DNA of 55,148 nucleotides from the NCBI GenBank assembly GCA_051439425.1, contig JBFRWD010000009.1, positions 1-55,148 on the forward strand, given 5' to 3'. Under the pieces are notes generated by a model that was given only the letters and a program-made list of their open reading frames with translations, was not told the DNA's origin and searched no databases. Shown here in pieces: positions 23,653 to 41,853 of the stretch (its first letter is position 1; every line of letters begins with the position of its first letter). Made by a program: the position numbers and the translations under genes. The DNA comes from Synechococcus sp. GTDB lineage: Bacteria > Cyanobacteriota > Cyanobacteriia > Thermostichales > PCC-7336.

Positions 23653-25974
23653 TCATTCAAAATCAGAAATATCATAATCCGCATAGGCTATCCCGCTAGA
23701 AGTCTCTAATACTTCAGAACTAATTAAATCTCCTTCCCGATCGTATACACCAGTCTTGAGAACGTTATTCTGTCTTCCACCTAAGTCATTATTCATCGCA
23801 GTACCAACTACGAAAGGTACATTCAATTCAGCTAAATTTGGATAGGCAAAATCATATTCAGTACTCCAATTTGGATAAAATATTAGTTCTGCGCCTAAAT
23901 CATTGACCATAGTACCAAGGGGTTCATTTTCGTCTTTGTTTCCAAAGACGTCGTAGCATATTGCAACTCCTACTTTGATATTCTCAATATCAAAGACCCT
24001 GATTTCATTCCCTGGTGTCAAATTCTTAAGCTCTCCACCAGACGGTAACAGTATTTTACGATGAGTGCCAATATACTTGCCATTATCATTAAATATTATC
24101 TGGGAGTTATATATATCACTATCACCTTTATTTTGCTCATAAATATGGCCTAAAATATACATTCCATGCTCTGATGCCCATTCTTTATATTGTAAGGAGA
24201 GAGTGCCTTTCTTCGGATCCTCTGCAGCTTTTTCAAAAGAAAGATTTTTACCATTATTAGTTTTTATTCTAGAAATTCCTTCTGGAAATAAAAGTATATC
24301 TACGCCTTTGGAAGCAGCATTTTTGACTAATTTATCATATTCTCTTATGGTGTCAGTAAGAGTTGGGCCCAGATCGTTCAGCTTTACTTGTACTGCACCA
24401 ATTCTAATAGTGCCAGGTGGATTATCATTTCCGGGTGGGTTCTTTGCAGGTTCTGGGTTCGGGCCAGGTAGTCGGTTCGTTTTTTTGAGGTCGAAATAAT
24501 CTATACGAAGGGACTCTTTGCGATGTTCCTTGCCAACGAAGGTGATTCGATCCCCAGCTTCAAGCTCGAGGCCCTTAATGGTTCGAACCTGACGGTTATT
24601 AGCGCTAATGTCACTAGAGCCAGAGTTGCGGTTTAAAGACCACTGGTCGACCAATATGTTGTTAACTAAGACTTTTATGTTTCCAGTGCCATCATTTTCA
24701 TCAAAGTAGTTGAGTTTAAGGTCGTAGATTCCCCTAGCTCCCTTGTGAACGTAGACTGCTCGACCTTGTTCGTTCCATTTCCCCCCCCGAAGACTGATGG
24801 CCTTACCACCAGAGAAAAGTTTATTACTTTCGATTCGGAAGGCTTCAGGTCTTTGAAGATTTTCAGCTTCAATTCGTAGATTAGAATTCGTTGCAGGTGG
24901 TGGAAGCGGATTAGGTAGTGGGTTCGTTTTTGTGAGATCGAAATAATCTATCCGAAGGAACTCTTTGCGATGTTCCTTGCCAACGAAAGATATCCGATCC
25001 CCAGCTTCAAGCTCGAGGCCCTTAATGGTTCGAACCTGACGGTTATTAGCGCTAATGTCACTAGAGCCGGAGTTGCGGTTTAAAGACCACTGGTCGACCA
25101 ATGTGTTATTAACTAAGACTTTTATGTTTCCAGGGCCAGCATTTTCATCAAAATAGTTGAGTTTAAGGTCGTAAATTCCCCCATCTCCTTTATGAACGTA
25201 GACTGCTCGACCTTGTTCGTTCCATTTCCCCCCCCGAAGGCTGATTGCCTTATCACCGGAGAAAAGTTTATTACTTTCGATTCGGAAGGCTTCAGGTCTT
25301 TGAAGATTTTCAGCTTCAATTCGCAGGTTAGAATTGGATTCATTTTTTGGCAGGACTGCACTGTAGGATTCTCGAATAGTCTCTTTAAATCCAATTCCTG
25401 ACTCGATATCTCCAATTACACGTTCTAAAACCCAATCACCTCCCTGCTCTCTACTACCAGTAAAGTCGGTAGATGCAGCAACATCTGTACCGGTGTAGTG
25501 ACTCAGTTGACCTAGCAAGGGATCGCCACTATAGATTCCGTCACCAATATAGTCACCAGCAACATTACATCCATAAACTAAAGTATCGGCGTCTTCAGTG
25601 AACGAGCTTCTCCAAAGTTCAAGTTTATCTTTATAGTAAGCAATATTGCTAGAGTTAAGCGTGGTGGAGCCCAGTTGAAATTCTCCATCATGGCCATGGG
25701 ACACCAAATGAAGGCTAGGGATGCTATCAAAATATCCTAACGCTTGTGTAATTTGCTCAATTCCATCTTCATCACGATCTAAAGCTATTGCGATAGTATT
25801 ATCAGTCAGAGTTTTAATGAGACTATCAATATTCTGGACAGCTGAATCAACAAACATCAAATTAACATTTGATGTTTGTATCTGACTGCTATCCAATTCG
25901 CCAACATTAAAAAAATAATTACCTGCCGAAAAAGTATTCGGTGAGTCTACAGTGCTCTTTGCTAATGTACTCAT
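23653..25974 (-). CDS. Multidomain protein: DUF4347 + two CBM6/35-like beta-sandwich repeats + carbon-nitrogen hydrolase (nitrilase superfamily) domain
   Basis: DUF4347 motifs ([47 protein letters not shown]); repeats LRIEAENL...[11 protein letters not shown]...RIDYFDL; nitrilase triad motifs [24 protein letters not shown] at 25974 with a GGGAGG RBS. Confidence 0.85.
24474..25335. repeat. Near-identical intragenic duplication with a 447-bp period (24474-24888 and 24921-25335) encoding the two CBM-like modules
   Basis: The two protein copies differ at only about ten residues; the 447-nt DNA offset was checked at both ends. Confidence 0.95.
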
Positions 25975-26587
25975 TTTGAGTATCCTCCCAAAACCTCGGG
26001 ATCTCATCAATGTTAAATAAATTCATCCTAAATTTATCGCCTAACCAGCTGCCTTCCATTAATCTCTTTAGGCATTTGAGCCCAAGCAAAGTCTTGTAGA
26101 TAGAATTACAGTGATTTCACTTGAGTATTTTTTTAAAGCCTAGAATAGAGTTAAGCACTTTAGAAAAGTTCAGACTTCTAGCAGACTAACCCCAATCTGA
26201 CTTAAAGATTTGATTTTGCTAGTTCACAACCTGACGTGCAAGCTATGTTGATGAATTCCTGGCTCTCATTATGTCTATTTTAAGTATAAAGGCAACTACA
26301 AATGATTGGAGAGCCTGATTGACAATTGTTTATTAACTTCAATTCGACAGAACAGTTCAAGCGGCAAGGCTCCAGTCAAAGTAACACTCTGAGCAGAGGT
26401 CAAGTATCACAAACGCTTAGCTAGTATGAATTTGAGGATTTGATGAGTATCCAATGATGCTACCCTGCTTGAGCCGTCCCCTTCAATGCCAGTGCCCGCT
26501 ACAGCTCACGAGGCTCTGGATGACTCGCGATAAACTCGTCTAACGTCATGCCTTTAGGGGATTGCTTCCCTATCAGCATCTATAAAA

Positions 26588-27445
26588 TCATCTGGGATTG
26601 CTATCGAGGTCTTTAGACAGAATACAATACACGTTGTGTGCAAAATATTTCCCGACAAAAGGAATATGGTGCATCAACCAAAACACTTTGGACTTGAAGT
26701 CAGTACTTCGATTGACTTGTAGTGATTCTACTCGTAATTTACTTGCATTAAATATATGTTTGTATTCAACGAACGATACTCCATTCAATCCTAAGTCGGC
26801 AAACGAAGAAATGTGAGATTCAGTCGAAGCATTCCAACATTTGACAAATTTTGACTCACTAGTCAGTAGGTGTCCCCAAGGAAATTTGTTACTAAAGTTC
26901 CAGCCAAAAGCATTTCCATGAAAGCCATATGGGCTATGCCATAGGGGGCCAAATCCTATATATGCCAAACCACCCGGCTTTAGAAGTCGGTGAAACTCTG
27001 ACAGAACCATCTCAAGATCGAGAACGTGCTCGAATGTGTCCTTGGAAAGAATATAGTCAAAGCCACCGGTGGGATATTCTTGAATATCTACAGCCAGAAA
27101 TTCAACCTTCTCTTCAAGTTCTGGATAATTCTTTCGGACGTTGAGAGTAGCAACCTCGATATCGCGAGCAGTTAAATCCAGACCAACGACTTTGTCTGCT
27201 CCAGCCAAGGCTATATCAACTGACAAATTCCCAAGTCCGCAGCCAAACTCTAGAACTTTGGCACCGTTGAACGATGGATTCTGCCCTAGGCGAGACCAAA
27301 AAATATCATTTATATTCTGGCCGTCCTGTTTCTTTAGATATTTGAAGGCATGTTCTAGATAGTCATCTGATTCTAGAAATGAAATAGCAGGGAATGAAAA
27401 ATCAGGCTTACTTTGTAGTGCTTTAGGCGTGAGTTGATTTACCAT
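26588..27445 (-). CDS. Class I SAM-dependent methyltransferase, probably modifying the polysaccharide
   Basis: Motif I VLEFGCGLGNL, VVGLDL, FDYILSKDTFEHV, RLLKPGG; GGAGG RBS; located in the glycan cluster. Confidence 0.9.
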   Translation of the reverse strand: MVNQLTPKALQSKPDFSFPAISFLESDDYLEHAFKYLKKQDGQNINDIFWSRLGQNPSFNGAKVLEFGCGLGNLSVDIALAGADKVVGLDLTARDIEVATLNVRKNYPELEEKVEFLAVDIQEYPTGGFDYILSKDTFEHVLDLEMVLSEFHRLLKPGGLAYIGFGPLWHSPYGFHGNAFGWNFSNKFPWGHLLTSESKFVKCWNASTESHISSFADLGLNGVSFVEYKHIFNASKLRVESLQVNRSTDFKSKVFWLMHHIPFVGKYFAHNVYCILSKDLDSNPR

Positions 27446-27604
27446 CGTTAATCCTCCTGGTGTATCGTAAGTTCCACTGCGTATGAATCCTGTAGAACAT
27501 AGCTGGTTAACCTTTCATTGACAAAAGTTAGCTACCTTCAAGCTCATCCTAAGTCATTTGCTAAGAATATAGACATCAACTAATATGACCTGCCTAAACT
27601 AAGA

Positions 27605-29140
27605 TTAATCCTCACTTTGTCTAATCAACCGAGGCTCTGTAGAATAGTTTTCTGAAGATTCACGTCTCATAACTGTCTTAATTAGTTTCAATAACATGTG
27701 TGGAGTTTGGCCAGACGAACCGATGAAAATTGAAAGGCTATAAATGGCAACTAGCACAACTGGCTGTAGAGCTTTCAGTACAATAGGCCACAGATCCGAG
27801 TCAATCAAACTCATGACTGGATTGAGGATGCTTGGAACCGCAAGTGCAGCGACAACACTGACAAATGCTGATCCACTGGGTAATACAACTGGTCTTATTA
27901 GAGAGGATATGGAGTAATTCAAAACTTTGCTGGTGGCAAGCCAAAACCAAATAGTCGCAACAACTCCCATGACTGTGGTGACGCTTATAGCGACCCCTAC
28001 TAGTCCTCCCAGCCATGCACCTAAGAGAAAAACGGGAATTGAAATGGGAACTAAAACCCAATTGATTGCAGCATTCACATGAGGCTTTTCAAGTGCATTT
28101 AAACTGGTCCCCAGAATCGACATAAAACCTCTTGAATAAGCAAATATCAACAATATCTGGAAAAGAGGAACCACTGGTGACCAATTCATTCCGAATATCA
28201 GGGGAATTAGCCATGGTGCGACAACAAACCCTATTCCATAGATTGGTGCTGATATTAAAGCGGACAATTCAAGTACTTTTTCGATGTAGCGTTTTTGGCC
28301 ATCAACTTCACTCTGAGCAATAACAGAAAAGTTCACTCGGTTGATCTGAGACAGCGCATACGCCGGAAGCATCGATAGCTGATAGGCCATGTTGTAAAAC
28401 CCCAGAGGCTGCGCCCCTAGAAGGCGGCCGATGATTACGTCATCTCCACTTGTGTTGGCATATACAGCTAGATTGGTACCAACTAAGCTGCTGATGTATC
28501 CTCGGACATTGCGCACTGCTGCTCGATCGGGAAGTAGCCTGTATCGAAACCGGTACCGACTGAACCAGCGCTTCAATCCTGACACCACAATTGCTCTGGC
28601 AATTTCTGCGATCCCGAATGACCATACCCCTAATCCAAACACTGCTCCGCCAATTGCCCCTCCCATACGAGCAAATGCGCCACAACTTTCTGCGATCGCT
28701 TGCTCGCGAAACTGCATACGACGGCTTAAAACAGCTTCGTGGGCTCCCTCTCCTGCGCTGAATAAAAAAACTAAAGCAGAGAAAGCGGTTAATGGAAAAA
28801 CTATTGGCTCATCAAAGAAAATGGCCATTAGGTACCCGATCCCGCTTTGAATAACAAACATCACAACGGAAACCGTAACCCCAAGGCTATAGACAGCTTC
28901 TGTTAAGGTTTTGTCTGCCAGTCCACGATGAACGAGCACTTGGGCAAGTGCCTTGTCCTTAAATAAGTTGGCAAGTGACATCACCACCCACACCATTCCC
29001 CAAATACCAAACACCTCAGGTGTTAGCAGGCGAGCCAGAACAATCTGAGACATCAGCTGCGAGGATTTTGCTAAGGCAAATCTTGCAGTTAACCAAAGAC
29101 TGCTACCTGCGACGGTTTTTAAAGTGCTGTTCGAGGACAT
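27605..29140 (-). CDS. wzx: Wzx/WzxC-like polysaccharide flippase, copy 1
   Basis: IVLARLLTPEVFG, DDVIIGRLLGAQPLGFYNMAYQL, many TM helices. Confidence 0.9.
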   Translation of the reverse strand: MSSNSTLKTVAGSSLWLTARFALAKSSQLMSQIVLARLLTPEVFGIWGMVWVVMSLANLFKDKALAQVLVHRGLADKTLTEAVYSLGVTVSVVMFVIQSGIGYLMAIFFDEPIVFPLTAFSALVFLFSAGEGAHEAVLSRRMQFREQAIAESCGAFARMGGAIGGAVFGLGVWSFGIAEIARAIVVSGLKRWFSRYRFRYRLLPDRAAVRNVRGYISSLVGTNLAVYANTSGDDVIIGRLLGAQPLGFYNMAYQLSMLPAYALSQINRVNFSVIAQSEVDGQKRYIEKVLELSALISAPIYGIGFVVAPWLIPLIFGMNWSPVVPLFQILLIFAYSRGFMSILGTSLNALEKPHVNAAINWVLVPISIPVFLLGAWLGGLVGVAISVTTVMGVVATIWFWLATSKVLNYSISSLIRPVVLPSGSAFVSVVAALAVPSILNPVMSLIDSDLWPIVLKALQPVVLVAIYSLSIFIGSSGQTPHMLLKLIKTVMRRESSENYSTEPRLIRQSED

Positions 29141-29162
29141 CGTGAATGAAAGACACCTTTAG

Positions 29163-30362
29163 CTAGGAGTCTTGTTGATACAAAACTTGGAATGAAGGAC
29201 GCTGCTCTGCTAACTCTTGACCAGTCTGTCCCAGTCGCTCCCGGAGTACCTCGTCTCTGCATAACTGGCTTAGAGCAAGCTGCAACTCTGTCGAGGAGTC
29301 GGGATCGACTAACAAACCATTTTTTAGGTGCTGTACGGCATCAATAACTCCACCCACTTTAGATGCAAGGACTGGTTTGCCAAAAAAGCCAGCTTCACGA
29401 TAAACGATTCCGAAACCTTCGATGCTTTGTGAATCAGCATCGAAAAAGGTCAACATGGCGAACAGATCGCAAGCGTCGTAATATGAGGCCAATTCTGAGT
29501 CAGGTACAAACCCGACAAAATGAACGCGGTCTTCAACATTCAAGCTGTTAGCAAGAGCTCGGAGGTCCTGTTCCATTTTTCCACGGCCACAAATCAGATA
29601 GTGAACATCAAGCCCCTTGGATAGGAGTGACGGAATCTGGGAAATGACCCGATCGAAACCTTTACGCTTGATCAGACGTCCGACGGTCAGGATGACCACA
29701 GAATCGGTTGGAATACCAAACTTTTGACGAACAGCAGCTCCTGACCCCTCTGCGGAGGAGGAATACATAGACGAAAGACCAAATTTGGAAGGCCTTACGG
29801 TTGGATTGATAACATACGCTTGAGAGGTTATCGAAACACTGTTCAACAGATAGCTTCGCGTAAACCAGCTATTGCAGACAACTCCCGACGATCGATTCAA
29901 TGTCCACCTAAAGACACTCTTGAATAATCGGTTGCGTAACGGACACAAGAGATCGTTGCCGTGTAGATAAACGAAATAACGTATGGGGAGCAAATACCCC
30001 AAAACCAAGATGGATGGAAAATCGTAACCGTGACACCATTCGATATATTTGAAGCGGTACTTCCAATACAGGAAGAGTCCCATAATCACTGAGAAAACCA
30101 TGCAGAATAGCTGTCTGGTTACTTTTCCAATCAGTGACTTTTTGAGAAACTCTGGGTTTGGCCAGCGATAAATGGTAAACGGCTGTGAGCGGTCGAAAGA
30201 ACGTGCCCCCGGACAATCTGCAGCTAAGACAACAACACGCTTTGAATCACGCGTGCAGCGGTCATACACGTACTCCTCAATGCCACCTTCTTGCGGCAAA
30301 AATGTTCGAGTGACAACTAGAATGCTTGCCTTCTCGACCCCTATATAGCTATTTCTAAACAT
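29163..30362 (-). CDS. GT4 glycosyltransferase
   Basis: FLPQEGGIEEY, VGRLIKRKGFD, EGFGIVYREA, GGVIDAV; start uncertain (ATG 30362 or TTG 30371). Confidence 0.92.
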   Translation of the reverse strand: MFRNSYIGVEKASILVVTRTFLPQEGGIEEYVYDRCTRDSKRVVVLAADCPGARSFDRSQPFTIYRWPNPEFLKKSLIGKVTRQLFCMVFSVIMGLFLYWKYRFKYIEWCHGYDFPSILVLGYLLPIRYFVYLHGNDLLCPLRNRLFKSVFRWTLNRSSGVVCNSWFTRSYLLNSVSITSQAYVINPTVRPSKFGLSSMYSSSAEGSGAAVRQKFGIPTDSVVILTVGRLIKRKGFDRVISQIPSLLSKGLDVHYLICGRGKMEQDLRALANSLNVEDRVHFVGFVPDSELASYYDACDLFAMLTFFDADSQSIEGFGIVYREAGFFGKPVLASKVGGVIDAVQHLKNGLLVDPDSSTELQLALSQLCRDEVLRERLGQTGQELAEQRPSFQVLYQQDS

Positions 30363-31715
30363 CAGCAACAATCACTGCGTTCTAGACAAATACTTAAGCT
30401 GTGACGTAGAGCAAAAACTTGGGACGAAAAGCGAATGCTTTAACTTGCAAGCATCAAAACAAGCGCAAGAATGCGAAGACAATAGACACATAGCTATGAT
30501 AAATAAATACGCAGCTAAAACCAGCGTATGCCTTGATGCCACTGTAAGTATTTGCTACATGCGTTCAGTTTGGAAATAATACCCAAATGGGCATCCCCAC
30601 TATTTGTCTAATCCAAGATTTTATTCTGGAATGAGCGATCTTTTAAAAGTTTAATGGAATACATAGCAATATCAATCAAGTGCCGATATCTGAAGGCAAC
30701 TCTTGGCCTCTCTCAAAAGATCAGAAGTATCTAATAAGCCTAAAACTTATCAAATACGTGCCAGTGAACTCAACCTAAGATTGCTGGCTCGGTGACGAAC
30801 TTTAGAAGAAATAAATATTGTCTAAAGATTCAATATTCAGTAAAGTACAAGAGTAAGAAAATAATCACAAAAAAACATAGACCTATGGATCTCGTGACAT
30901 AAATAGCTTATTCACTATGAACCCCCAATGGAATACAGTGCTGAATTGGCAAGTGTGTTTTCAGGGTATGTCCGTAAATATTTCACCCAATATAGCATCA
31001 CTACCTACGTACGTAGCATGGAGGGATTAATTTTATTTACACAGTAAATTACTCTTCATCGAAAGTAAAAATTAACACAATCGAACCTTGAATGATTTTT
31101 GTCGGACATATTTTTTGCTCTGCCTCATAAAATTTACCCATAGGCCAGAATGGCCGTATAAAAATATCGCCTGCAAGTCAGGTCCTGTTATTTGATGGCA
31201 TTACTCTTGAGCGCAAAAGTCTTGGTATTTTTATACGCGCCTGCCGATAAACGAATTTGATTTCAATTCTTAATGAAGAATATCCGACACTTCGGGCGTT
31301 TAGGTCAAAGGAAATAGCCGTATAGCTTCCATCTCCGGATTTGTCTTGGTTGACTGTGAAAAGGCCTAATGACTTCGGAAGAAACCTATACAGTGCTGGG
31401 GCTATAACTGTTGAATAAGTGCGAAGGATTAACGAATTAGCGCTGCAGTGCTAGCCGCCTTTTTGATATGACAGTTACAAATATTTTGCATTTAAACTAG
31501 GCTTTGCTCTTAGCTGCTGTACTGAGTTCCTAGAACGATAATCAAAGTACGATACCAATTCTCGGCGATCGCAGTAAGGTCTGTAGTGAGGAGAGCTCAA
31601 AGCCTTGATTGGCTGAGAAAAGATTTGAAATCCTCCATAACTGGATTGCAGGAAGCTATACAAGGACTTGGCTACGACTTGCCTGCTCATATCGTTTCCC
31701 TAGACTGATGCGGTC

Positions 31716-33188
31716 TTAAGCTCCTACTGCTTTCATCAATCGATATTTCAGTTTGCGAAATAGATAATAAGGAGCATCCCCGGACGTTGCTATCAGGAGC
31801 TTTACCAACCCAATATCGCTGTCTTTCTGATTGAAGGGGTACTGCGATAATGTGGGGGCAATGCGATGAATGATCTTTTCTTGAATACGCGATCCGAGTC
31901 GGGCCGCTTCGGGAAAACTCAGTAATAGAGAGTAGTTAAGCGCCGAATTCAAAATTGGAAAGCGTTCCAGTCTGCCGAGATCGTACAGCTGCTCTTTGGC
32001 TGCCAACCAACCTGCTTGACGCTGTTCGATGAAAAAGCGATCGCGCCAATCTAAGTGCTCTTGCGGATGCTTAAGAACCCACTCAAGCCATTCCTGAAGT
32101 CCGATCACGGCAGACGAAGATAGCGGTTCCTGAAACAACCGCGCAAGTTGTTCGGCACCAACTTCAGCACCGGTAACGCTGCTGGGTAAGAGGCGCAGGT
32201 TGGAAAATCCACTCGCAACGGCAAATCCGTGGCCTCCAAATGAAATGCCCTCCATTTCGTCCCGGATACCGTTGATAAACGGGTCAGCGTCACCTGGCGA
32301 GACATGACCAGCGCTGTGTTTGATTACGAGAGCGGCGCGCTCGGATGAGAACTCCCTATGTCGCATGATTGTATGTGTGTAGCCACAATCGCGAGCTAAT
32401 TGGGGAGGTAGCAAGCGATCTGCTACGGCTGTTCTCGCCGATATGCGAGTGAATGGTAAAACATCAACACTCGCGTGGGCGCATAGCGCTAGCATCAGCC
32501 GGGAGTCGTAACCTGCGGTCAGACCGAGCCACAACGGTTGATGAAAGGACGCTAACCGTTTGACTGTTGTCACCAATCTAGTACTAATTTCCGCAATAGC
32601 ATCGTCTTCACTCCAATCTCGCTCAATGTCGGGCATCAGTGGACGAGCAACCACTTCTTGCTGACGTAGATTTAAGACTTGGCTTGGTAAGAGTCGAGTA
32701 ATACCAGGCAGCTTAGTACGCGGCGGAGTGAACCAGGAGATGCCTACTTGGTAATGCAACTCTCGCCGGTCTGGCAGAGGGGGACCGTCTCCAAACAGCA
32801 GGTGATTTAGCAAAGTAGGACTGCTACTTGCCCAGAAGTCCGCCGAATTGGTCCGACCGAACAGGCAACCGAGCAGGCCGCTAGCATCCATATGTACTTG
32901 TTCCGACCCTAGCAGCACCCATCGACCTGCCCAACTGGAGTACAGGTCTGAAATCCGATCGCTGCTAGTTTGTTGAATTTGTTCTGCAGGGGAGGGTTGA
33001 GTGGCGGTGGTTTCGACTGCTAGCCCTAGTAATGCCCAACTGGTGCCATCGCTATCGGTGGTGAGTTGAACTCGCAGTGACGGGCAGTGAGATAACCACA
33101 TTTTCTCATCCAACTGGTGGCAGTTCCAATCCGGATAGGCATTGAACGGCTCCGGTCCGACCACATATTGGCGCCGATGCGGTTTCAT
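31716..33188 (-). CDS. Asparagine-synthetase-like N-type ATP pyrophosphatase without the N-terminal catalytic Cys
   Basis: Degenerate Ntn-like region (WAGRWVLL, HMDASGLLGCLFG, TRLLPSQVLNL) and a PP-loop variant LGLTAGYDSRLML; start ATG 33188 or GTG 33215. Confidence 0.65.
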   Translation of the reverse strand: MKPHRRQYVVGPEPFNAYPDWNCHQLDEKMWLSHCPSLRVQLTTDSDGTSWALLGLAVETTATQPSPAEQIQQTSSDRISDLYSSWAGRWVLLGSEQVHMDASGLLGCLFGRTNSADFWASSSPTLLNHLLFGDGPPLPDRRELHYQVGISWFTPPRTKLPGITRLLPSQVLNLRQQEVVARPLMPDIERDWSEDDAIAEISTRLVTTVKRLASFHQPLWLGLTAGYDSRLMLALCAHASVDVLPFTRISARTAVADRLLPPQLARDCGYTHTIMRHREFSSERAALVIKHSAGHVSPGDADPFINGIRDEMEGISFGGHGFAVASGFSNLRLLPSSVTGAEVGAEQLARLFQEPLSSSAVIGLQEWLEWVLKHPQEHLDWRDRFFIEQRQAGWLAAKEQLYDLGRLERFPILNSALNYSLLLSFPEAARLGSRIQEKIIHRIAPTLSQYPFNQKDSDIGLVKLLIATSGDAPYYLFRKLKYRLMKAVGA

Positions 33189-33391
33189 GGTGTAGCCGGG
33201 AGTGGTTACTGACACAAGCTAGCCTCGGTCTAGGTGGCCTGGAAGACAAAATCATGAGGTCAATAAAAAACTGGTGCTAAGGAGCGCTCCAACTATCCAA
33301 TGCAATGTCTTTCATACTGGACAGCAACATACTTGATCATCAGTTCGATAAGACAGTTGTGTAAGGCTTGGTTTCCCTAAGTGAAAAACAC

Positions 33392-34663
33392 TTAAATACT
33401 TATCAACGAACGATAAAGATTAACCAGCTCGTCATTTAAAACCTCCATGTTATAGGTCGCTTCCACTTCCCGACGACCTGCCCACCCCATGGCTTCCCAG
33501 TCTTGAGGTTGATCGACTAAGTAAAGTAGTTTTTCAAACAAAGCATCTGCATCGCGCTCCGGGACCAAAAATCCAGATACACTATCGTGGATCAATTCGG
33601 GAATACCACCGTGCCAGGTCCCGATCGTTGGCAATCCCATTGCCATCCCTTCTTTTAACGTATTGACCGGTGCATCGGCATCTCCATCCGCTGCTGTCAC
33701 ACTGGGTGCTAGCAATAAATGAGAGCGATCTAGGAGCTCGATCAATTCATTCTGAAGCTTCCATCCAACCAGTTGAATGGTGTCACCTGCGTCCAAAGAA
33801 TCCACAAGTGCCTGGAGGCTAGATCTTAAAGGTCCATCTCCCACAACGAGATACTCGACGGGTCGCTGGCGAGCAAGACGGGCGACGGCTCGGATAGCGT
33901 ATTCAATCCCCTTTTTTTCCACCAATCTGCCAATAGTGATAATCCGGGTAGTCTCCTGTAGAAGTCGCGTGCGGGGGCGAAACGCGAAACGACGAACATC
34001 AATTCCCGAGCGATGGACCGATAGCTTATTGGGGTCTCCCCCTAAATCGAGCACTCGCTGTGCAAAAAATTGGCTATTGGGTAGATACGCGTCGGCAGCT
34101 TGCAGAAGGTCATCGTAGACGCGATCGCCGAACTTAGCGATGGCCCAACTGATGTCACGCCCCCGGAAGGAAACGACCAACTTTCCCGTTATCAGTCCCA
34201 GCTGTTTGAACAATAAGATGACAAGAGCGGTTGTGCCAAATTGACAGTGAATGATGTCGTAATCCAGCCCTCCCAATAGTGGAAGGGCGCGGTAAATCAA
34301 TCTCAGGGACAGGGCGTCGCGGCCGTGGAGCACTGGATTCAAAAGTTGTAGGGTTGCCTTCCAATGCTGCTGGTGAGTTGGCCATTTAGAGAAAGATCGA
34401 ACTAGCGTAAACCACCGTTCCAAATAATTCGCAGGTACACGTGGCGAAAACCGAGTGCGGTTGAGTAATTTATACTGCTCGACGATGGGATGAACGGATA
34501 CTTCTGGGTCGGCAGACCCCTGCAGGGCAAGAATCTCGACTTCATGGCCGCGATCGAGAGCACCTGCAATTTGATTGAGGACAAAGGTTTCGGAAGGGAC
34601 TGGAAATTCCTCGACAACATGGACTATTTTCATGGGCGATTGGGTTGCAACAGCCTTCATCAA
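33392..34663 (-). CDS. GT4 glycosyltransferase, WcaL-like
   Basis: FPVPSETFVLNQI, IIHCQFG, SFRGRDIS, IGRLVEKKGIEY, APSVTAADGD, TWHGGIPELI; ATGA overlap with the upstream wzx. Confidence 0.93.
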   Translation of the reverse strand: MMKAVATQSPMKIVHVVEEFPVPSETFVLNQIAGALDRGHEVEILALQGSADPEVSVHPIVEQYKLLNRTRFSPRVPANYLERWFTLVRSFSKWPTHQQHWKATLQLLNPVLHGRDALSLRLIYRALPLLGGLDYDIIHCQFGTTALVILLFKQLGLITGKLVVSFRGRDISWAIAKFGDRVYDDLLQAADAYLPNSQFFAQRVLDLGGDPNKLSVHRSGIDVRRFAFRPRTRLLQETTRIITIGRLVEKKGIEYAIRAVARLARQRPVEYLVVGDGPLRSSLQALVDSLDAGDTIQLVGWKLQNELIELLDRSHLLLAPSVTAADGDADAPVNTLKEGMAMGLPTIGTWHGGIPELIHDSVSGFLVPERDADALFEKLLYLVDQPQDWEAMGWAGRREVEATYNMEVLNDELVNLYRSLISI

Positions 34664-36144
34664 ACCACCGTCCGCTTTGAATGATTCTGCTCCGCTGTTT
34701 GTTTAGTGGAGACATTCAAACTTTTCAAAAGGGTTTCTTTGAATACCTCAAACACCTGCCCACCAGACAGGACACTTGCAATTCCCAAGTATCCAGCCAG
34801 AACCAGCACTGACAGGCTCCATTGGGGTATGGGAGTCACTGTAACGACTACAAAAGAACAGGCAAGCGACAGCCCAATTGCCACGGTTGGAACTCCCAAG
34901 GGCTTTATGAGAGCGATTGCACTCCACTTGGCAGCCCGGCAGGTGGCAAGCCAAAACCACGCTGTAGCGCCTAACCCCATCACAATGGCAACTGAAATTG
35001 CGACCCCTTGGATTCCTCCCAACCAAGCACCAATCGCAAATGCAGGCAAAGACATTGGAACCATGGCCCAATTGATGAATGCATTCAGTTCAGGGCGATC
35101 GATCGCATTCAAGGTAGTTCCCAAGATGGCCATGAAACCACGGGCATATGCGAATACCAATACCCATTGAAAGAGTCCGACAACCGGTTTCCATTCCGGG
35201 CCGTATATCCAGGGAATAGCCAGGGGAGCAAGAGCATATGCCACTCCGTATATTGGGGCCGAGACTATGGCAAATAGTTCGAGGGAACGACTGACATAGC
35301 GCTGCAGAGCTTGACTAGACAACTGCGACATGACAGAAAAGCTAACGCGGTTTACCTGCGATAGTACAAAGGTCGGCATCATAGCTAACTGGTAGGCCAG
35401 ATTGTAGAGTCCCAACGACTGCGCACCCAACAGCCGACCGATAATCATGTTGTCACTGTTGGTATTTGCATACACAGCCAAATTAGTGCCAATCAGGCTG
35501 CCAACATAGCGCCTCACACTGCACAGGGCACCTGCATCCGGACGGAGTTGGAATCGGCAATGGTAACCGCTGAACAAGCGGCGCAATACACTACTGATTG
35601 CTGTGAAAGCTAGCTCCGCCAGCACAAATGACCACACTCCTGCGCCAAGTACTGCGGCCAAAATTATGGTGATTAACCTTACGCCGTTTGAAATCCATCT
35701 GGCGATCGCAATTTGGTGGAATTTCATTTGCCGCTGCAGGATCGCTCCGTGGGTTCCTGCTCCAGCCCCAATTAAAAACGTCAGTGCCGAAACCACTGTC
35801 AAGGGAAATACGATGGGTGTGTCGAAAAATAGTGCCAATGGGAACCCAATTGCTGATTGCAGGAAAAACATCACAACAGATATTGCGATTCCCAGGCTGT
35901 AGACGGCGTTAACTAGCGTTTTGTCGTCGATCCCCCGCTGAATCAGAACGCCGGAGATAGCTGAGTCTTTGAAAATGCTGGATAAAGCCGTCACTACAAG
36001 GACCATCCCCCAAACCCCAAAGTCTTCCGGGATCAACAGTCTGGCCAATACAATCTGAGCCAATACCCGCGATAGCTTTCCAACGAGAAAACTAGATGTT
36101 AGCCACAGGCTACTTCTTGCAATTTTGGCTGCAGTTGCCGCCAT
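34660..36144 (-). CDS. wzx: Wzx/WzxC-like polysaccharide flippase, copy 2
   Basis: IVLARLLIPEDFG, DNMIIGRLLGAQSLGLYNLAYQL; paralogue of 27605-29140; probable ATG at 36144. Confidence 0.9.
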   Translation of the reverse strand: MAATAAKIARSSLWLTSSFLVGKLSRVLAQIVLARLLIPEDFGVWGMVLVVTALSSIFKDSAISGVLIQRGIDDKTLVNAVYSLGIAISVVMFFLQSAIGFPLALFFDTPIVFPLTVVSALTFLIGAGAGTHGAILQRQMKFHQIAIARWISNGVRLITIILAAVLGAGVWSFVLAELAFTAISSVLRRLFSGYHCRFQLRPDAGALCSVRRYVGSLIGTNLAVYANTNSDNMIIGRLLGAQSLGLYNLAYQLAMMPTFVLSQVNRVSFSVMSQLSSQALQRYVSRSLELFAIVSAPIYGVAYALAPLAIPWIYGPEWKPVVGLFQWVLVFAYARGFMAILGTTLNAIDRPELNAFINWAMVPMSLPAFAIGAWLGGIQGVAISVAIVMGLGATAWFWLATCRAAKWSAIALIKPLGVPTVAIGLSLACSFVVVTVTPIPQWSLSVLVLAGYLGIASVLSGGQVFEVFKETLLKSLNVSTKQTAEQNHSKRTVV

Positions 36145-36626
36145 AGAACATTCCTTGTACTTTAAATTGGCAGTCAACTATGCTCTTTTAGCGCATTAAT
36201 CTTGGAGATTACGTGCCGATTATTTCGTCTGCACAAATATTTCAAACGGATTTCTTCTTAGAAAAGAGATAAATTAGAATCCTAGAATTTCAGTAATCAT
36301 ATGCAACGGTGGGGAAAAGCCATGGAATGTTTAAATCTTACCACATAATTATATATTGACGCCCTATGTTACGTCCTAGGTGTGGAGACATCCAAACTCT
36401 TTGGTATGAATGAAAACTACTCAAGATGTGAGCCGCATTGAATTGCCACCCTCTATAATGAAAATCATCAAAAGCAAGCAATCTCAATCTCAACTGAAAA
36501 TAATTAATGGCATGCCTTGGCATTAAAATAGAAGGCCAAGAGAGAAAATATCTTCAAACATTATTAGGCCAGAATATTTCTGATTGACTGTTTACAATGG
36601 CCAGTCTTTTGCATACAGGCATACAT

Positions 36627-37739
36627 CTACACTTCAACGGCAAAATCATTCACTATGTCTGCAAATCTAGCGGCTGTTTTTTCCCAGCTGTAGTTTTGGA
36701 GTAACTGTTTGCGACTAGCATGTCCCAAATCCTTACGGATTCCCGGATGCTCGATAAGCGTTGTCAACGCTGCTGCGAGCTCTCGGGTACTTCCGGGTGA
36801 GACCAGTAACCCCGTTTCACCATCTTGAACCAGTTCTGGAATCGCAGAAATATTTGTACTCACAATTGGTAGCCCGTAGTACATGGCTTCTAGCAGTACG
36901 ATTCCAAACCCTTCTTTGTATGACGGCAACACAAAAATATCAGCTTGCTGATATAAGCGTTCGAGAGTGGCATCGTCTGTCCTGCCATGAAAGATAACCG
37001 ATTCTTCTAGCTGTTCTCGTTTGACAATATTACAAATTGAACGATAGTAAGCAATATCTTTATTCGTTTCTCCCACGATATTGAGTATGTACTCATGACC
37101 ATCACTCAACATTGAGACTGCATTGACTAGCTCCCGTATGCCTTTACGCGGAATGCAATGTGCCACACACAAAATAGATAGAGATTGCCGATTATCCTCC
37201 TTCTCCACACTCACCGACTGCCTAAATTTCTCTTCTAGCCCCGGAGGCAATATTGAAATCGAATCCTGAGAGAATCCCAAAGACATTATTTCCTGTTGGC
37301 AATATCGACTATTGGTGATGATGTGGTTCGCTGACGACAGTTTCAATTGCTCAACAATCGCGGAGTATGTTGCCCAAAACGAATCTTGGGAGTTGCATTC
37401 ATAACCTTCGAAATGATGCACTATTGCCAGTACATATCCTCTGTGAATATATCTGTGAATTGCATTCAAAACGACTAAATATCCACCAAAGTACTGATCG
37501 AATACCAATAGCCGATCGCCGCGACCAAACGCCAATAGTGCCAAACAGAGATTAACGACAACTGGACCCAGAAGCGGAATTCGTGCCAACCTCAACAGAT
37601 ACCGAATCTTATATAGGTCAATTGCCTCTACCTCCACGCCTGTGCGATCGAGATACGAGTAAAGCTTTAGGTTGTAAAGCTCTCCACCCGTTTTGGCGGG
37701 AATACTGCCAGTGAGGAACGTAACCTTCTGCATGCTCAA
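36627..37739 (-). CDS. GT4 glycosyltransferase
   Basis: TGGELYN, IPRKGI, ADIFVLPSYKEGFGIVLLEAM. Confidence 0.93.
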   Translation of the reverse strand: MSMQKVTFLTGSIPAKTGGELYNLKLYSYLDRTGVEVEAIDLYKIRYLLRLARIPLLGPVVVNLCLALLAFGRGDRLLVFDQYFGGYLVVLNAIHRYIHRGYVLAIVHHFEGYECNSQDSFWATYSAIVEQLKLSSANHIITNSRYCQQEIMSLGFSQDSISILPPGLEEKFRQSVSVEKEDNRQSLSILCVAHCIPRKGIRELVNAVSMLSDGHEYILNIVGETNKDIAYYRSICNIVKREQLEESVIFHGRTDDATLERLYQQADIFVLPSYKEGFGIVLLEAMYYGLPIVSTNISAIPELVQDGETGLLVSPGSTRELAAALTTLIEHPGIRKDLGHASRKQLLQNYSWEKTAARFADIVNDFAVEV

Positions 37740-39070
37740 GAGTGAGTACCAGGCTGGGACAATGTGGATGTTGAGAGATTCGGCTGCAATCGCTCGCCAG
37801 ACTGACCGGAATGAGTAGAAGATTGGTCTCTACCTACCTCCAAACAACCTGTCTCCAAGCCGCCTGTCTCTAATCCGGTCAATGTCGCAATCCCATGCGC
37901 ATAGCGAGCTACATGGCAGTTCTGCTCGACCCACTCACGTCCGGCCTTCAGTTGTTGAGCCGTCCGCTCGGCTGATGTACGTAGAGCACAAATGCAGCGG
38001 GCAACAGCTGCAGGATCGTCAGGGGCAACGGTCCAGTCTGGCGCAAAGTTATTCAAAATCTCGGCGATGCCTCCAGTCTTGCTACCGATAACCGGAACTC
38101 CGCTCGCAATGGCCTCGGCCACCGTCCGTCCAAACGGTTCGCGGGGAGCCAAAGAGATGGTTGCGTCAGCATGCACAAAGTAGGATTCGATATCAAATAC
38201 TGGAGGTAAAATTGTTAGCCAATCTCCAACACCATGCTTGTCAGCCAGCTCCTGTAAGCTACGGGTATAGCTACCATCACCAGACCCATCTGCCCCAATA
38301 ATGACGCTTTGATAGCGCTGTCCCATCGCCTTCAACTCTGCCAATACGGGTATGAGTGCCCGCAGATTTTTGTCGTTGACAATTCCAGGTTTATTTAGGC
38401 GTGAGGGGGTAAGCAAGATCCCAATATTGGAGTCGATCAACGACCTGAGGGCCTCTGGAGGCTTGTCAATTCTGGATCGCTCGAATCGACTGGGATCGAC
38501 CGGTTGATACAGAACTCCTCGAATATCCCGAGTCACGTACTGGCGGATGACACTGGCGGTGAAATTGGAGTTGCAAATTGCCCCTGGAGCCACCCGAGCA
38601 AACACGAATTTGCGTACCCAGTTGCCAATGGGATTGTATGAAATCGCTAGATCGTGAAAAAAGTGGAATAGCGGTCGCCGCTGCTGTCGCAGCATCTTAG
38701 ATTCTGCAAGCAGCACAAACATCCGATTGCGCAACACCCAACTTTCCAATAACAGCGGCCAATGGTGAGGTTGTTGATGCACCCACTGCAAGCTGCTACG
38801 AGAAAATGACTGTCCCGGTTGGGCTTCCAGCGATTGCAAGCAGTCCACATGCCCCGCTTGCAGCAAATACTGTTCTTGCAAAGAGCCTGCTTTCGTCACC
38901 ACCACGAGGCGATTGCCCATGCCCAATTGCTTGAAACCAGCAATTAACATTGACAGGCTGACTGTCATCCCGCCGAACGAGCTGGTGTAAGCAGATAGCA
39001 CGATCAACTTACTGTCGCTTCCTTGTTTCGAACAATCCGTTGGTGTTGCAGGGGGAGTAGAACCGTTCAT
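37736..39070 (-). CDS. GT4 glycosyltransferase
   Basis: FGGMTVSL, REPFGRTVAEAIASGVPVIGSKTGGIAEIL; 4-nt overlaps with both neighbours. Confidence 0.9.
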   Translation of the reverse strand: MNGSTPPATPTDCSKQGSDSKLIVLSAYTSSFGGMTVSLSMLIAGFKQLGMGNRLVVVTKAGSLQEQYLLQAGHVDCLQSLEAQPGQSFSRSSLQWVHQQPHHWPLLLESWVLRNRMFVLLAESKMLRQQRRPLFHFFHDLAISYNPIGNWVRKFVFARVAPGAICNSNFTASVIRQYVTRDIRGVLYQPVDPSRFERSRIDKPPEALRSLIDSNIGILLTPSRLNKPGIVNDKNLRALIPVLAELKAMGQRYQSVIIGADGSGDGSYTRSLQELADKHGVGDWLTILPPVFDIESYFVHADATISLAPREPFGRTVAEAIASGVPVIGSKTGGIAEILNNFAPDWTVAPDDPAAVARCICALRTSAERTAQQLKAGREWVEQNCHVARYAHGIATLTGLETGGLETGCLEVGRDQSSTHSGQSGERLQPNLSTSTLSQPGTHS

Positions 39071-40155: not shown

Positions 40156-40261
40156 GAGAACGACTCTGTGTCCGATCGGGTGTGAGAGGGAAGAAATCTT
40201 GGAGAAGGGAGAAGCGAAAGTATGTGTAGATCGGGTTTTCTTGCTGTCGCAACCAGAAACT

Positions 40262-41650: not shown

Positions 41651-41853
41651 ATCTGTTGCACCAAACCACTAATGGCAGTAGTGAGATTAACGTTAGTCAT
41701 TAGACAAATACTGTTTGAAAACGTAAGTGGACCATCCATGCAAAGCTGCTAGATAAACACAGAGGCTAGAGAAACGAAAAGGGTAACGGTACTCAAAGGC
41801 TTGAGAAACAAAACAGGGTTGTAGGTGCCTGCCACATCAAGCGATCGCAAGAC

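What the first reader, a model, noticed from the sequence alone, without database searches (positions are those of the whole stretch)
23653..25974. DUF4347 - CBM - CBM - nitrilase-superfamily fusion: a candidate glycan-targeted amidase
Seen: an N-terminal DUF4347, two near-identical ~140-aa modules of the IEAE...IDY type, Pro-rich linkers ([28 protein letters not shown]), and a complete carbon-nitrogen hydrolase domain with all three triad motifs (FPE-Glu, HRK-Lys, ICYD-Cys). Known: DUF4347 usually heads large, probably secreted cyanobacterial proteins; IEAE-type modules resemble CBM6/CBM35; nitrilase-superfamily enzymes hydrolyse non-peptide C-N bonds and are mostly cytoplasmic and stand-alone. 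Inference: this looks like a modular carbohydrate-active enzyme with an amidase/N-acyl hydrolase as its catalytic unit, placed as the last same-strand gene of an EPS cluster. I do not recall this architecture being described.
Basis: partly seen in the sequence, partly recalled or inferred. Interest (0 to 1): 0.78.

Follow-up and report, generated by a model that had tools for sequence, protein, structure and literature searches.

The report
Sugar-anchored amidase with caspase-like head
A cyanobacterial gene at the edge of a slime-polysaccharide gene cluster joins a caspase-like head, two sugar-binding modules and a very divergent nitrilase-family amidase, a combination seen nowhere else so far, which suggests an untested type of enzyme that cuts carbon-nitrogen bonds on or within extracellular polysaccharide.

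Summary
Window 23656-25974 (-) encodes a 773-aa protein with four parts:
- DUF4347 (Pfam E 3e-47);
- two 137-aa repeats (129 of 140 aa identical);
- Pro-rich linkers;
- a complete CN_hydrolase domain whose Glu565, Lys640 and Cys673 align with invariant columns of relatives.

Three things were added here.
- The repeats fold (pLDDT 92.5) as CBM6/35/36/84-type beta-sandwiches. Z is 13-15, and the best Foldseek hit is a xanthan-binding module.
- DUF4347 folds as a caspase/CHAT-like module with a conserved His-Cys pair. Its nearest structure is the putative cysteine protease Tce1 (Z 12.2).
- The amidase domain has no close relative among 1.84 billion representatives (best 35% identity). Its nearest clade is itself fused to CBM_4_9-like modules, often behind signal-peptide-like N-termini.

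Paralogues and metagenomic relatives carry the same head and repeats fused to polysaccharide lyase or LamG domains.

The weak points:
- there is no signal peptide or known export tag;
- the gene is missing from 3 of 3 congeners;
- a 613-nt gap separates it from the EPS cluster;
- the five paralogue loci inspected are not EPS loci;
- the assembly across repeat 1 is unverified.

Best reading (0.45): a matrix-anchored, glycan-directed C-N hydrolase. It is a new variant of a known kind, of moderate interest.

The parts
23653..25974 (-). Whole gene (773 codons plus stop): caspase-like DUF4347 head, two CBM-like repeats, CN_hydrolase
   Evidence: start at ATG 25974 supported by the similar N-terminus of P0002
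25861..25974 (-). N-terminal 38 residues before DUF4347; no hydrophobic signal-peptide-like stretch by eye, no LEPR-XLL match
   Evidence: sequence; NCBIfam scan at E<=0.1 lists only CN-hydrolase families
25351..25860 (-). DUF4347 domain (residues 39-208); caspase/CHAT-like predicted fold; conserved His93 (25696-25698) and Cys136 (25567-25569)
   Evidence: Pfam E 3e-47. In alignment A2 of 32 sequences, Gly65 and Cys107 are invariant and Ser63 and His64 are at least 90% conserved. SHG at residue 92 and YGC at residue 134. AF2 pLDDT 91.1. VIA Z 12.2 to 9qpe_G Tce1 and 8.5 to SAVED-CHAT.
24928..25338 (-). Repeat 1 (residues 213-349), CBM6/35/36/84-type module
   Evidence: 93% identical to repeat 2; member of alignment A1
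24892..24927 (-). Pro-rich linker 1 (residues 350-361)
24481..24891 (-). Repeat 2 (residues 362-498), CBM6/35/36/84-type module; this copy was the one modelled
   Evidence: AF2 pLDDT 92.5, 11 strands. Foldseek top hit 7ehg MiXBM, E 1.8e-9, TM 0.74-0.77. VIA Z 14.8 to CBM35 2w1w, 14.6 to CBM36 7ay3, 14.4 to CBM6E 8j3y, 13.8 to MiXBM.
24415..24480 (-). Pro-rich linker 2 (residues 499-520)
   Evidence: A 1197-nt contig of run X1 with 0 differences spans 23346-24542, that is the CN domain, this linker and the start of repeat 2.
23656..24414 (-). CN_hydrolase (nitrilase-superfamily) domain, residues 521-773; Glu565 (24280-24282), Lys640 (24055-24057), Cys673 (23956-23958); GC 0.358
25975..26587 (.). 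613-nt spacer to the upstream methyltransferase gene; 26375-26587 holds two ~107-nt dispersed repeats found on other contigs
26588..43923 (-). Wzx/Wzy-type polysaccharide cluster on the same strand: methyltransferase, 2 Wzx, 5 GT4-type, 1 GT2, Wzy, Wzc-like, one unknown ORF
46433..47179 (+). Stand-alone PF14099 polysaccharide-lyase-family protein on the far side of the cluster, the same family that is fused to DUF4347 heads in paralogues
   Evidence: Pfam E 6e-35; 32% identical, E 5e-34, to the lyase-like domain of the C141 paralogue

Best explanation
The gene encodes a modular, most likely cell-surface or matrix-located enzyme.

Shown by computation:
- Two CBM6/35/36/84-type beta-sandwich modules.
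- A C-terminal nitrilase-superfamily domain with an intact Glu-Lys-Cys triad.
- An N-terminal DUF4347 module with a caspase/CHAT-like fold and a conserved His-Cys pair.
- Sister proteins in which the same head and modules carry polysaccharide-lyase or LamG domains.

Inferred:
- The CBM-like modules dock the protein to an acidic, uronic-acid-containing exopolysaccharide, plausibly the product of the neighbouring Wzx/Wzy cluster.
- The Cys673 thiol attacks a non-peptide amide-type C-N bond. Candidates are a uronamide, an amino-acid amide on a uronic acid, or an N-acyl or N-carbamoyl group on an amino sugar.
- This forms a thioester that water resolves, releasing ammonia or an amine and changing the charge of the polymer.
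- The DUF4347 head is a shared maturation or export module of this protein family, possibly self-cleaving like the cysteine protease domains of large toxins.
For: Domains and triad.

CBM fold: the model has pLDDT 92.5. Foldseek gives 307 PDB hits at E<=1e-3, led by the xanthan-binding module 7ehg and by CBM6, CBM35 and CBM36 entries, several of them solved with uronic acids (2w47, 4qb2). VIA gives Z 13-15 over 116-125 residues. A review places the xanthan-binding modules of the Microbacterium enzymes in CBM84 (PMC10881899, passages).

Guilt by association:
- P0003 and P0004 are DUF4347 + PF14099 lyase + 2 repeats. P0002 is DUF4347 + repeat + LamG. P0005 is repeats + PA14.
- In the same genome the repeat sits in proteins with PF14099, CBM_6 and cadherin domains.
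- A stand-alone PF14099 protein flanks the EPS cluster.

Nearest amidase clade: of 39 top relatives scanned with Pfam, 3 have CBM_4_9, 1 has F5/8-C plus a T9SS tail, 1 has a sulfatase, 1 has PKD and 1 has GT2. 66 of 67 N-terminal extensions are related to the CBM_4_9-positive one. Many relatives start with signal-peptide-like N-termini. The clade occurs in at least 599 stretches of species genomes of Acidobacteriota, Verrucomicrobiota, Planctomycetota and Bacteroidota.

Gene integrity: the frame is open over 253 codons at GC 0.358. A zero-difference contig spans the CN-linker-repeat 2 junction, and a second study (X2) holds about 95%-identical CN-domain DNA.
Against: - No signal peptide is visible in the first 38 residues. 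There are no RTX repeats and no LEPR-XLL tag, so the export route is unknown and localisation is inferred only.
- No Pfam CBM family matches the repeats at E<=1.
- Nitrilase-superfamily active sites known from structures are pockets for small substrates (my knowledge of the family). No member is known to act on a polysaccharide.
- The link to the EPS cluster is not conserved. The CN domain was not found in 3 of 3 same-genus genomes (best hit among 40 relatives 31% identity). In the complete congener G402, chlH and the Wzx-like match lie far apart. None of the 5 paralogue loci inspected is an EPS cluster.
- Neighbourhoods of 12 loci of the CBM_4_9-like + CN clade share no operon. Sulfatases occur in 2 of 12, and beta-helix or CEMIP-like proteins in 2 of 12.
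- The contigs of all four runs laid do not jointly cover the stretch: no run has depth in the bin 25118-25218, and X1, the likely source sample, has none over 25017-25218. The link between the DUF4347 head and the rest, and the copy number of two, therefore rest on the assembly alone.
Confidence: 0.45

Rival explanations
1. Matrix-retained scavenging amidase. The CBM-like modules only tether the enzyme in the cell's own sheath or slime. The nitrilase-type domain hydrolyses small soluble amides, nitriles or carbamoyl compounds from the surroundings to release ammonia or to detoxify them. The polysaccharide is a scaffold, not the substrate.
For: By profile, the closest solved relatives are small-molecule enzymes: Pyrococcus nitrilase-like proteins, Nit2 omega-amidase, Nit3 and N-carbamoylputrescine amidase, at E 1e-70 to 1e-55. 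The profile is dominated by the relatives rather than by this domain. No conserved glycan-degrading neighbourhood was seen for the nearest clade in 12 loci. One neighbour in L107 is glutamine synthetase. The run that best holds the gene is labelled marine sediment metagenome.
Against: Sister proteins with the same head and repeats carry polymer-cleaving lyase domains. Relatives are fused to sulfatase, GT2 and CBM_4_9, which points to glycan chemistry. None of this excludes the rival.
Confidence: 0.25
2. Recent non-functional chimera or assembly artefact. A DUF4347-repeat gene was joined to a foreign CN_hydrolase fragment, either by recombination in a variable region or by mis-joining of contigs at the 93-95% identical repeats. 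The product has no selected function.
For: The head and repeats are 89-95% identical in DNA to a paralogue split over contigs C161 and C160. The CN domain has GC 0.358 against 0.514 for the genome. The gene is absent from congeners. Dispersed repeats sit in both flanking spacers. In the contigs of all four runs laid, no run has depth over 25118-25218, and X1 has none over 25017-25218.
Against: The frame is open over 773 codons, including 253 AT-rich codons. All triad residues are kept. The CN-linker-repeat 2 junction is spanned by a zero-difference 1197-nt contig. Depths are even: 13.1 over the CN domain, 13.5 over DUF4347 and 12.3 upstream. The loose ends seen at 24475 and 24922 are the linker of the LamG paralogue. 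Run X2, from another study, holds about 95%-identical CN DNA. Even if the head belonged to the paralogue, the CN domain would still be fused to a repeat of this family.
Confidence: 0.1
3. Amide-forming transferase. Like apolipoprotein N-acyltransferase (Lnt) in the same superfamily, the domain runs the acyl-enzyme step towards an amine acceptor and decorates the exopolysaccharide or a surface protein instead of hydrolysing it.
For: The Lnt model gives a weak match: TIGR00546 at E 2.5e-10, 40 bits against a cut-off of 132.9. Position next to a biosynthetic cluster.
Against: The score is far below the Lnt cut-off. The protein lacks the membrane domain that Lnt has (my knowledge of Lnt). The closest relatives by profile are hydrolases.
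Confidence: 0.07
4. Delivered toxin or effector. DUF4347 acts as in the Pseudomonas type VI effector Tce1, and the variable C-terminal domain (here an amidase) is the toxic payload of a polymorphic-toxin-like family.
For: The nearest solved structure of the head is the Hcp3-bound effector Tce1 (Z 12.2; PMC13323088, passages). C-terminal modules are swapped among paralogues.
Against: The swapped modules are lyase-like, LamG and CBM domains, not toxins. There is no candidate immunity gene downstream: the next gene is convergent chlH, and the only ORF between is a 99-aa frame on the other strand. The head occurs up to 20 times per genome on giant repeat proteins, which fits surface proteins rather than Hcp cargo.
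Confidence: 0.05

Closest known systems
Nitrilase superfamily (Pfam CN_hydrolase PF00795); nearest solved members are Pyrococcus PH0642/nitrilase-like proteins (1j31, 3ivz), mouse Nit2 (2w1v) and N-carbamoylputrescine amidase (5h8i)
   Same: Domain-wide homology and aligned Glu-Lys-Cys motifs.
   Different: At most 35% identity to anything among 1.84 billion representatives, with none at E<=1e-30. No NCBIfam subfamily cut-off is reached: best 59 bits against 410. The 'FPE' that follows the Cys motif in relatives is replaced, with a 4-residue insertion. It is fused behind CBM-like modules instead of standing alone.
Uncharacterised clade 'CBM_4_9-like module + CN_hydrolase' (e.g. P0024, P0046, P0054, P0068; named by sources only as carbon-nitrogen hydrolase or predicted amidohydrolase)
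   Same: These are the closest relatives of the amidase domain. They also put a beta-sandwich glycan-binding-type module in front of it.
   Different: They have one N-terminal CBM_4_9-type module, often behind a signal-peptide-like N-terminus, and no DUF4347. They come from other phyla: Acidobacteriota, Planctomycetota, Verrucomicrobiota and Bacteroidota. Identity is 28-38%. No function has been tested, as far as my searches show.
CBM6 / CBM35 / CBM36 / CBM84 carbohydrate-binding modules (e.g. 2w1w, 7ay3, 8j3y, 7ehg MiXBM)
   Same: Same beta-jelly-roll fold over nearly the whole module, Z 13-15. Conserved acidic positions E8, E10, D64, E65, D67 and D131 lie where, as I recall, this fold binds calcium in several families.
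   Different: No Pfam CBM model matches at E<=1. The profile against PDB reaches only E 0.054, to MiXBM. Identity is 12-26%. Ligand unknown.
Tce1 (PA0256) of Pseudomonas aeruginosa and clan-CD cysteine peptidases (CHAT, caspases, legumain, the cysteine protease domains of large toxins)
   Same: DUF4347 family (PMC8262886, passage; PDB name of 9qpe_G). Shared fold (Z 12.2; CHAT 8.5; the others 5.8-7.2). A His-Cys pair conserved at the ends of two strands.
   Different: Here the module is the N-terminal head of a glycan-binding enzyme, not a small type VI cargo. Protease activity has not been shown for Tce1 either: the paper shows only that a Cys mutant of Tce2 loses yeast toxicity.
DUF4347-headed polysaccharide-lyase proteins (P0003, P0004; paralogues on C129, C141, C123, C147)
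   Same: Same head, same repeat family, same linker style.
   Different: Their catalytic unit is a PF14099 lyase-like domain placed between head and repeats. Here it is a C-terminal nitrilase-type domain.

Membership tests
Nitrilase superfamily (CN_hydrolase, PF00795) | Sequence match above the curated threshold over the whole domain | tested here: met
   63.7 bits against 23.2; profile positions 4-252 of 256 in the six-frame search
Nitrilase superfamily (CN_hydrolase, PF00795) | Catalytic Glu-Lys-Cys triad in the conserved motifs | tested here: met
   E565, K640 and C673 fall in columns that are E 68/68, K 68/68 and C 65/68. E45 and K120 are invariant and C153 at least 90% conserved in A3. 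Aligned to the motifs of 1j31. A Glu at K+8 (E648) exists, but its equivalence to the second catalytic Glu is not settled.
Nitrilase superfamily (CN_hydrolase, PF00795) | Four-layer alpha-beta-beta-alpha fold and dimer | not tested
Named nitrilase-superfamily subfamilies (AguB, archaeal nitrilase, Lnt, NAD synthase, deaminated-glutathione amidase, formamidase, aliphatic amidase) | Score above the NCBIfam curated cut-off | tested here: not met
   Best is TIGR03381 at 59 bits against a cut-off of 410. All 8 listed families are far below their cut-offs.
CBM6/35/36/84-type carbohydrate-binding module | Beta-jelly-roll fold superposable on solved members | tested here: met
   pLDDT 92.5; Foldseek E 1.8e-9 to 7.8e-6; VIA Z 13-14.8, rmsd 2.3-2.9, 116-125 residues aligned
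CBM6/35/36/84-type carbohydrate-binding module | Sequence membership of a curated CBM family | tested here: not met
   No Pfam CBM hit at E<=1. The PDB profile search gives its best hit, MiXBM, at E 0.054. CAZy family assignment cannot be run here.
CBM6/35/36/84-type carbohydrate-binding module | Binding of a glycan | not testable with these tools
   Only association with lyase, LamG and PA14 domains.
DUF4347 (PF14252) | Sequence match above threshold | tested here: met
   160.8 bits against 24.6, profile positions 1-164 of 164
Clan CD cysteine peptidases (caspase/CHAT/legumain/toxin CPD fold) | Caspase-like alpha/beta fold | tested here: inconclusive
   Z 12.2 to Tce1, which is itself only a putative protease; 8.5 to SAVED-CHAT; 5.8-7.2 to Craspase CHAT, caspases, legumain, GPI8, C11, separase and toxin CPDs. 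Foldseek TM is only 0.38-0.53. The tool warns that Z under 8 is common.
Clan CD cysteine peptidases (caspase/CHAT/legumain/toxin CPD fold) | His then Cys catalytic dyad, each after a beta strand | tested here: met
   His64 at least 90% conserved, Gly65 and Cys107 invariant in 32 sequences. These are H93 and C136 of the protein. They follow strands 56-62 and 96-105 of the model. Spatial closeness could not be measured because no coordinates are given.
Type I secreted RTX proteins / LEPR-XLL-tagged giant proteins | RTX nonapeptide repeats or an N-terminal LEPR-XLL tag | tested here: not met
   No PF00353. No NF012209 at E<=0.1, while relative P0013 does have it at 26.6 bits. The search of the own genome found nothing, but its control was silent too.
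Sec/Tat-exported proteins | N-terminal signal peptide | not testable with these tools
   No predictor is on hand. By eye the first 38 residues (and the 12 extra from the TTG start) have no hydrophobic core.

The most novel reading that the evidence does not exclude
The nitrilase-superfamily domain, together with its CBM_4_9-fused relatives in at least 599 genome stretches, is the catalytic unit of an unrecognised class of carbohydrate-active enzymes. These would be polysaccharide amidases that remove amide-type decorations (uronamide, amino-acid amides, N-acyl or N-carbamoyl groups) from extracellular glycans. In cyanobacteria this unit has been captured by a family of surface enzymes whose caspase-like DUF4347 head cleaves itself or its carrier during export by a route that needs no signal peptide.
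Probability: 0.2. Interest if true: 0.8.

Novelty: new variant of a known kind. Interest (0 to 1): 0.55.

Why it matters
Enzymes known to edit extracellular polysaccharides are lyases, glycosidases, esterases and metal-dependent deacetylases. A thiol amidase of the nitrilase superfamily aimed at a glycan has not been described in the papers I could search.

If the reading holds, this protein and the much larger CBM_4_9-fused clade would open a new enzyme class for glycan remodelling. That clade occurs in Acidobacteriota, Planctomycetota, Verrucomicrobiota and Bacteroidota, phyla I recall as noted polysaccharide degraders. It would also give a handle on amide decorations of cyanobacterial slime.

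Separately, DUF4347 heads hundreds of giant cyanobacterial proteins. Seeing it as a caspase-like module with a conserved His-Cys pair gives a testable idea for how those proteins mature.

Tried and rejected
- RNA evidence: no RNA holder was listed for the gene. This says nothing on expression.
- Rfam over the whole window at gathering thresholds: no match.
- Promoter and terminator scan of 23000-26700: counts at chance level, 8 found against 7.3 expected and 2 against 2.8. It does not tell whether the gene has its own promoter.
- ESM Atlas on the amidase domain: only generic CN_hydrolase clusters, scores 0.93-0.94.
- Earlier findings by place and by sequence: nothing. By four words together: nothing.
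- LEPR-XLL search of the own genome: nothing, but the control genomes were silent as well, so it is uninformative.
- Neighbourhoods of 12 loci of the CBM_4_9-like + CN clade: no shared operon.
- Literature:
  - 'DUF4347' occurs in 5 papers, none on cyanobacterial enzymes.
  - 'nitrilase superfamily' + 'carbohydrate-binding module' + 'secreted' gives 2 papers, judged unrelated from their titles and abstract openings.
  - 'CN_hydrolase' + 'exopolysaccharide' gives 0.
  - 'carbon-nitrogen hydrolase' + 'carbohydrate binding' + 'signal peptide' gives 1 paper, on secreted proteins of cereal-infecting fungi, judged off-topic from its title and abstract opening.
  - A broad cyanobacterial EPS/lyase/CBM search gave 68 papers; none of the 15 listed is on this protein type by title or abstract.
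- Uncovered stretch in the read lay: no run has depth over 25118-25218, and X1 has none over 25017-25218. I treat this as untested, not as evidence.
- One search failed because one coordinate range contained stop codons. It was repeated without that range.
- A structure of the amidase domain and a dimer prediction were not run.
Full report
**The thing itself.** On the minus strand an ORF runs from 26010 (TTG) to 23653. The ATG at 25974 gives a 773-aa protein, and its first residues resemble those of the closest homologue P0002.
- Pfam finds DUF4347 at residues 39-208 (E 3e-47) and CN_hydrolase at 537-677 (E 2.2e-17).
- A six-frame family search of the genome extends the CN_hydrolase match to profile positions 4-252 of 256.
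- Between the two domains lie two copies of a 137-aa module, residues 213-349 and 362-498. They are 129 of 140 aa and 392 of 420 nt identical, and are separated and followed by Pro-rich linkers.

The genome is a cyanobacterium: it has 13 phycobiliprotein matches, and among 14 control genomes only Synechococcus rings. It is a 182-contig assembly, 96% complete.

**The repeats.**
- The same module occurs 9 times at E<=1e-5 in this genome (10 at E<=0.001) and in 15 of 401 sampled genomes of the phylum.
- An alignment of 32 copies (A1) gave an AlphaFold model with pLDDT 92.5 and 11 strands.
- Foldseek against the PDB gave 307 hits at E<=0.001. The list is led by MiXBM (7ehg; E 1.8e-9; TM 0.74-0.77; 23-25% identity) and then by CBM6, CBM35 and CBM36 entries.
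- VIA-align gave Z 13-14.8 for CBM35 2w1w/2w47, CBM36 7ay3, CBM6E 8j3y and MiXBM. These are all tied.
- A review assigns the xanthan-binding modules of the Microbacterium enzymes to CBM84 (PMC10881899, passages read).
- By sequence the module belongs to no curated family. There is no Pfam CBM hit at E<=1, and the best PDB profile hit has E 0.054.
- Nearly invariant acidic positions (E8, E10, D64, E65, D67, D131) fit the calcium sites that I recall for this fold. That point is recalled, not tested.

**The company the repeats keep.**
- The closest relatives in 5.8 billion clusters are P0002 (DUF4347 + repeat + LamG), P0003 and P0004 (DUF4347 + PF14099 polysaccharide lyase + two repeats) and P0005 (repeats + PA14).
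- In this genome the module sits in DUF4347 proteins that also carry PF14099, CBM_6 and cadherin-type domains.
- A stand-alone PF14099 protein lies at the far end of the EPS cluster in the window (46433-47179). It is 32% identical to the lyase-like domain of a paralogue.

This is the strongest indirect support for a glycan-directed role.

**The head.**
- DUF4347 is common: 57 of 201 sampled genomes, up to 20 copies per genome, on open frames up to 11,710 aa. This genome has 11 matches.
- In 32 aligned copies (A2) a Gly and a Cys are invariant, and the preceding Ser-His is at least 90% conserved. These are S92-H93-G94 and C136 of this protein.
- The model (pLDDT 91.1) is closest to chain G of 9qpe, the Hcp3-bound effector Tce1 (Foldseek E 3.3e-4; VIA Z 12.2, rmsd 3.0, 146 residues).
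- Next come SAVED-CHAT (Z 8.5), Craspase CHAT (about 7), and caspases, legumain, GPI8, a C11 peptidase, separase and the cysteine protease domains of MARTX and TcdB (5.8-6.7).
- The paper on Tce1 (PMC13323088, passages read) calls it a putative cysteine protease whose His186 and Cys240 overlay the TcdB dyad. An earlier paper notes that PA0256 has DUF4347 (PMC8262886, passage).

So the head is a caspase/CHAT-like module with a plausible catalytic pair. Activity is unproven, here and in print.

**The amidase domain.**
- Glu565, Lys640 and Cys673 fall in columns that are E in 68 of 68, K in 68 of 68 and C in 65 of 68 rows of an alignment with 67 relatives. They also align with the motifs of PH0642.
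- No named subfamily is reached.
- The domain is an outlier. With word-based searches only three (near-length) and two (fused-length) relatives passed E<=0.001, at 27-37% identity.
- A full HMMER scan of 1.84 billion representatives found 1441 hits at E<=0.001, 62 at E<=1e-10 and none at E<=1e-30. The best had 35% identity.
- It was not found in 3 of 3 same-genus genomes. The best hit among 40 relatives is 31% identical.
- Its GC is 0.358, against 0.396 for the head, 0.438 for the repeats and 0.514 for the genome.

**What the nearest relatives look like.**
- I scanned 39 of the 150 listed hits with Pfam, chosen by rank and by length. Of these:
  - 3 carry CBM_4_9 in front of the CN domain;
  - 1 has F5/8-type C plus a type IX secretion tail;
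  - 1 has a sulfatase;
  - 3 have a beta-lactamase-family domain;
  - 1 has PKD;
  - 1 has GT2;
  - 3 have DUF7133;
  - 1 has Vanin_C.
- Among 155 relatives, 67 have at least 110 residues before the CN domain. 66 of those 67 were reached by an iterative search seeded with the CBM_4_9-positive N-terminus of P0046. The database was small and the threshold lenient, so I treat this as indicative.
- Many relatives start with signal-peptide-like sequences. A crude rule flagged 53 of the 141 relatives that start with M (examples).
- A profile of 28 such proteins found 599 confirmed stretches in species genomes, mostly Acidobacteriota, Verrucomicrobiota, Planctomycetota, Bacteroidota and Armatimonadota.
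- Sources name them only as carbon-nitrogen hydrolases or predicted amidohydrolases.
- Their neighbourhoods in 12 loci share no operon. Sulfatases occur in 2, beta-helix or CEMIP-like proteins in 2, and ThuA in 2.

**Context and integrity.**
- The same-strand cluster upstream is a Wzx/Wzy-type polysaccharide locus.
- The gene is separated from it by 613 nt that hold dispersed short repeats. The downstream spacer holds one too.
- Five paralogue loci are not EPS clusters.
- In the complete congener, chlH and the best Wzx-like match are far apart.
- The head and repeat 1 are 89-95% identical in DNA to a paralogue split over contigs C161 and C160. A mis-join at the repeats therefore had to be considered.
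- Contigs of the best-holding run (X1, probably the source sample) include a 1197-nt piece with no differences across 23346-24542. That piece covers the CN domain, linker 2 and the start of repeat 2. Depths are even (about 13).
- No run has depth over 25118-25218, and X1 has none over 25017-25218.
- Loose ends at 24475 and 24922 equal the linker of the LamG paralogue.
- A run from another study (X2) holds CN-domain DNA with 30 differences over 23301-23966 and 13 over 24045-24296.
- The repeat-CN fusion is thus well supported. The head-to-repeat link and the count of two repeats rest on the assembly.

**Export.**
- There is no hydrophobic N-terminus, no RTX repeat and no LEPR-XLL tag.
- Earlier notes of this scan propose that DUF4347 giant proteins with a LEPR-XLL leader are cargo of an undescribed HlyD/S2P/SecA-like exporter.
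- I found the tag in relative P0013 (26.6 bits). I did not find it in this protein, in its paralogues or in this genome (the last is uninformative because the control was silent).
- Localisation outside the cell is therefore an inference from the domain types.

**Reading.**
- Most likely (0.45): a matrix- or surface-located enzyme that docks on an acidic exopolysaccharide and uses a thiol amidase to cut an amide-type C-N bond on it.
- Main rival (0.25): the same protein with the glycan as anchor only and small amides as substrates.
- Lesser rivals: a non-functional chimera or mis-assembly (0.10), an Lnt-like transferase (0.07) and a delivered toxin (0.05).

The architecture DUF4347 + CBM + CBM + CN_hydrolase was found only here. 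The broader idea of 'CBM plus nitrilase-type amidase' is widespread but uncharacterised. I rate it a new variant of a known kind, interest 0.55.

Noticed in passing
window 25351-25860 (and loci L035-L064): DUF4347, which heads giant proteins in 57 of 201 sampled genomes of the phylum, models as a caspase/CHAT-like fold with an invariant Cys and a nearly invariant His. This suggests that the heads of these giant proteins are cysteine peptidase-like modules.
   Followed up: yes
P0024, P0046, P0054, P0068; loci L082-L147: A large uncharacterised clade of about 420-480-aa proteins (signal-peptide-like start, CBM_4_9-like module, CN_hydrolase). It occurs in at least 599 stretches of species genomes of Acidobacteriota, Verrucomicrobiota, Planctomycetota, Bacteroidota and Armatimonadota.
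   Followed up: partly
G000 contigs C161:2020-2652 and C160:2-1264: A close paralogue (DUF4347 + one repeat + LamG, 89-95% DNA identity to the head and repeats) is split over two contigs. The C161 frame ends in a stop just after DUF4347, and the C160 frame starts with unrelated residues. The gene is either disrupted or broken by the assembly.
   Followed up: partly
window 30372-31715: A 1.3-kb stretch inside the EPS cluster with no frame open for more than 90 codons between stops, GC 0.391, and no Rfam match. It could be a decayed gene or an unannotated element.
   Followed up: partly
window 31716-33215 (-): A 499-aa ORF in the middle of the EPS cluster with no Pfam family at E<=1e-4.
   Followed up: no
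window 23121-23186, 23280-23451 and 26375-26587: Short dispersed repeats (60-170 nt, 75-86% identity) flank the gene on both sides. They recur on many contigs of this genome and of congeners. The depth of run X1 at 23300-23400 is about three times that of the gene.
   Followed up: partly
window 46433-47179 (+): A stand-alone PF14099 polysaccharide-lyase-family protein next to a GT2 gene, at the far end of the EPS cluster.
   Followed up: partly
G000 contig C129 (7.7 kb): Three DUF4347-headed genes in tandem (lyase-like, cadherin-like and repeat modules). This looks like a local expansion of the family.
   Followed up: no
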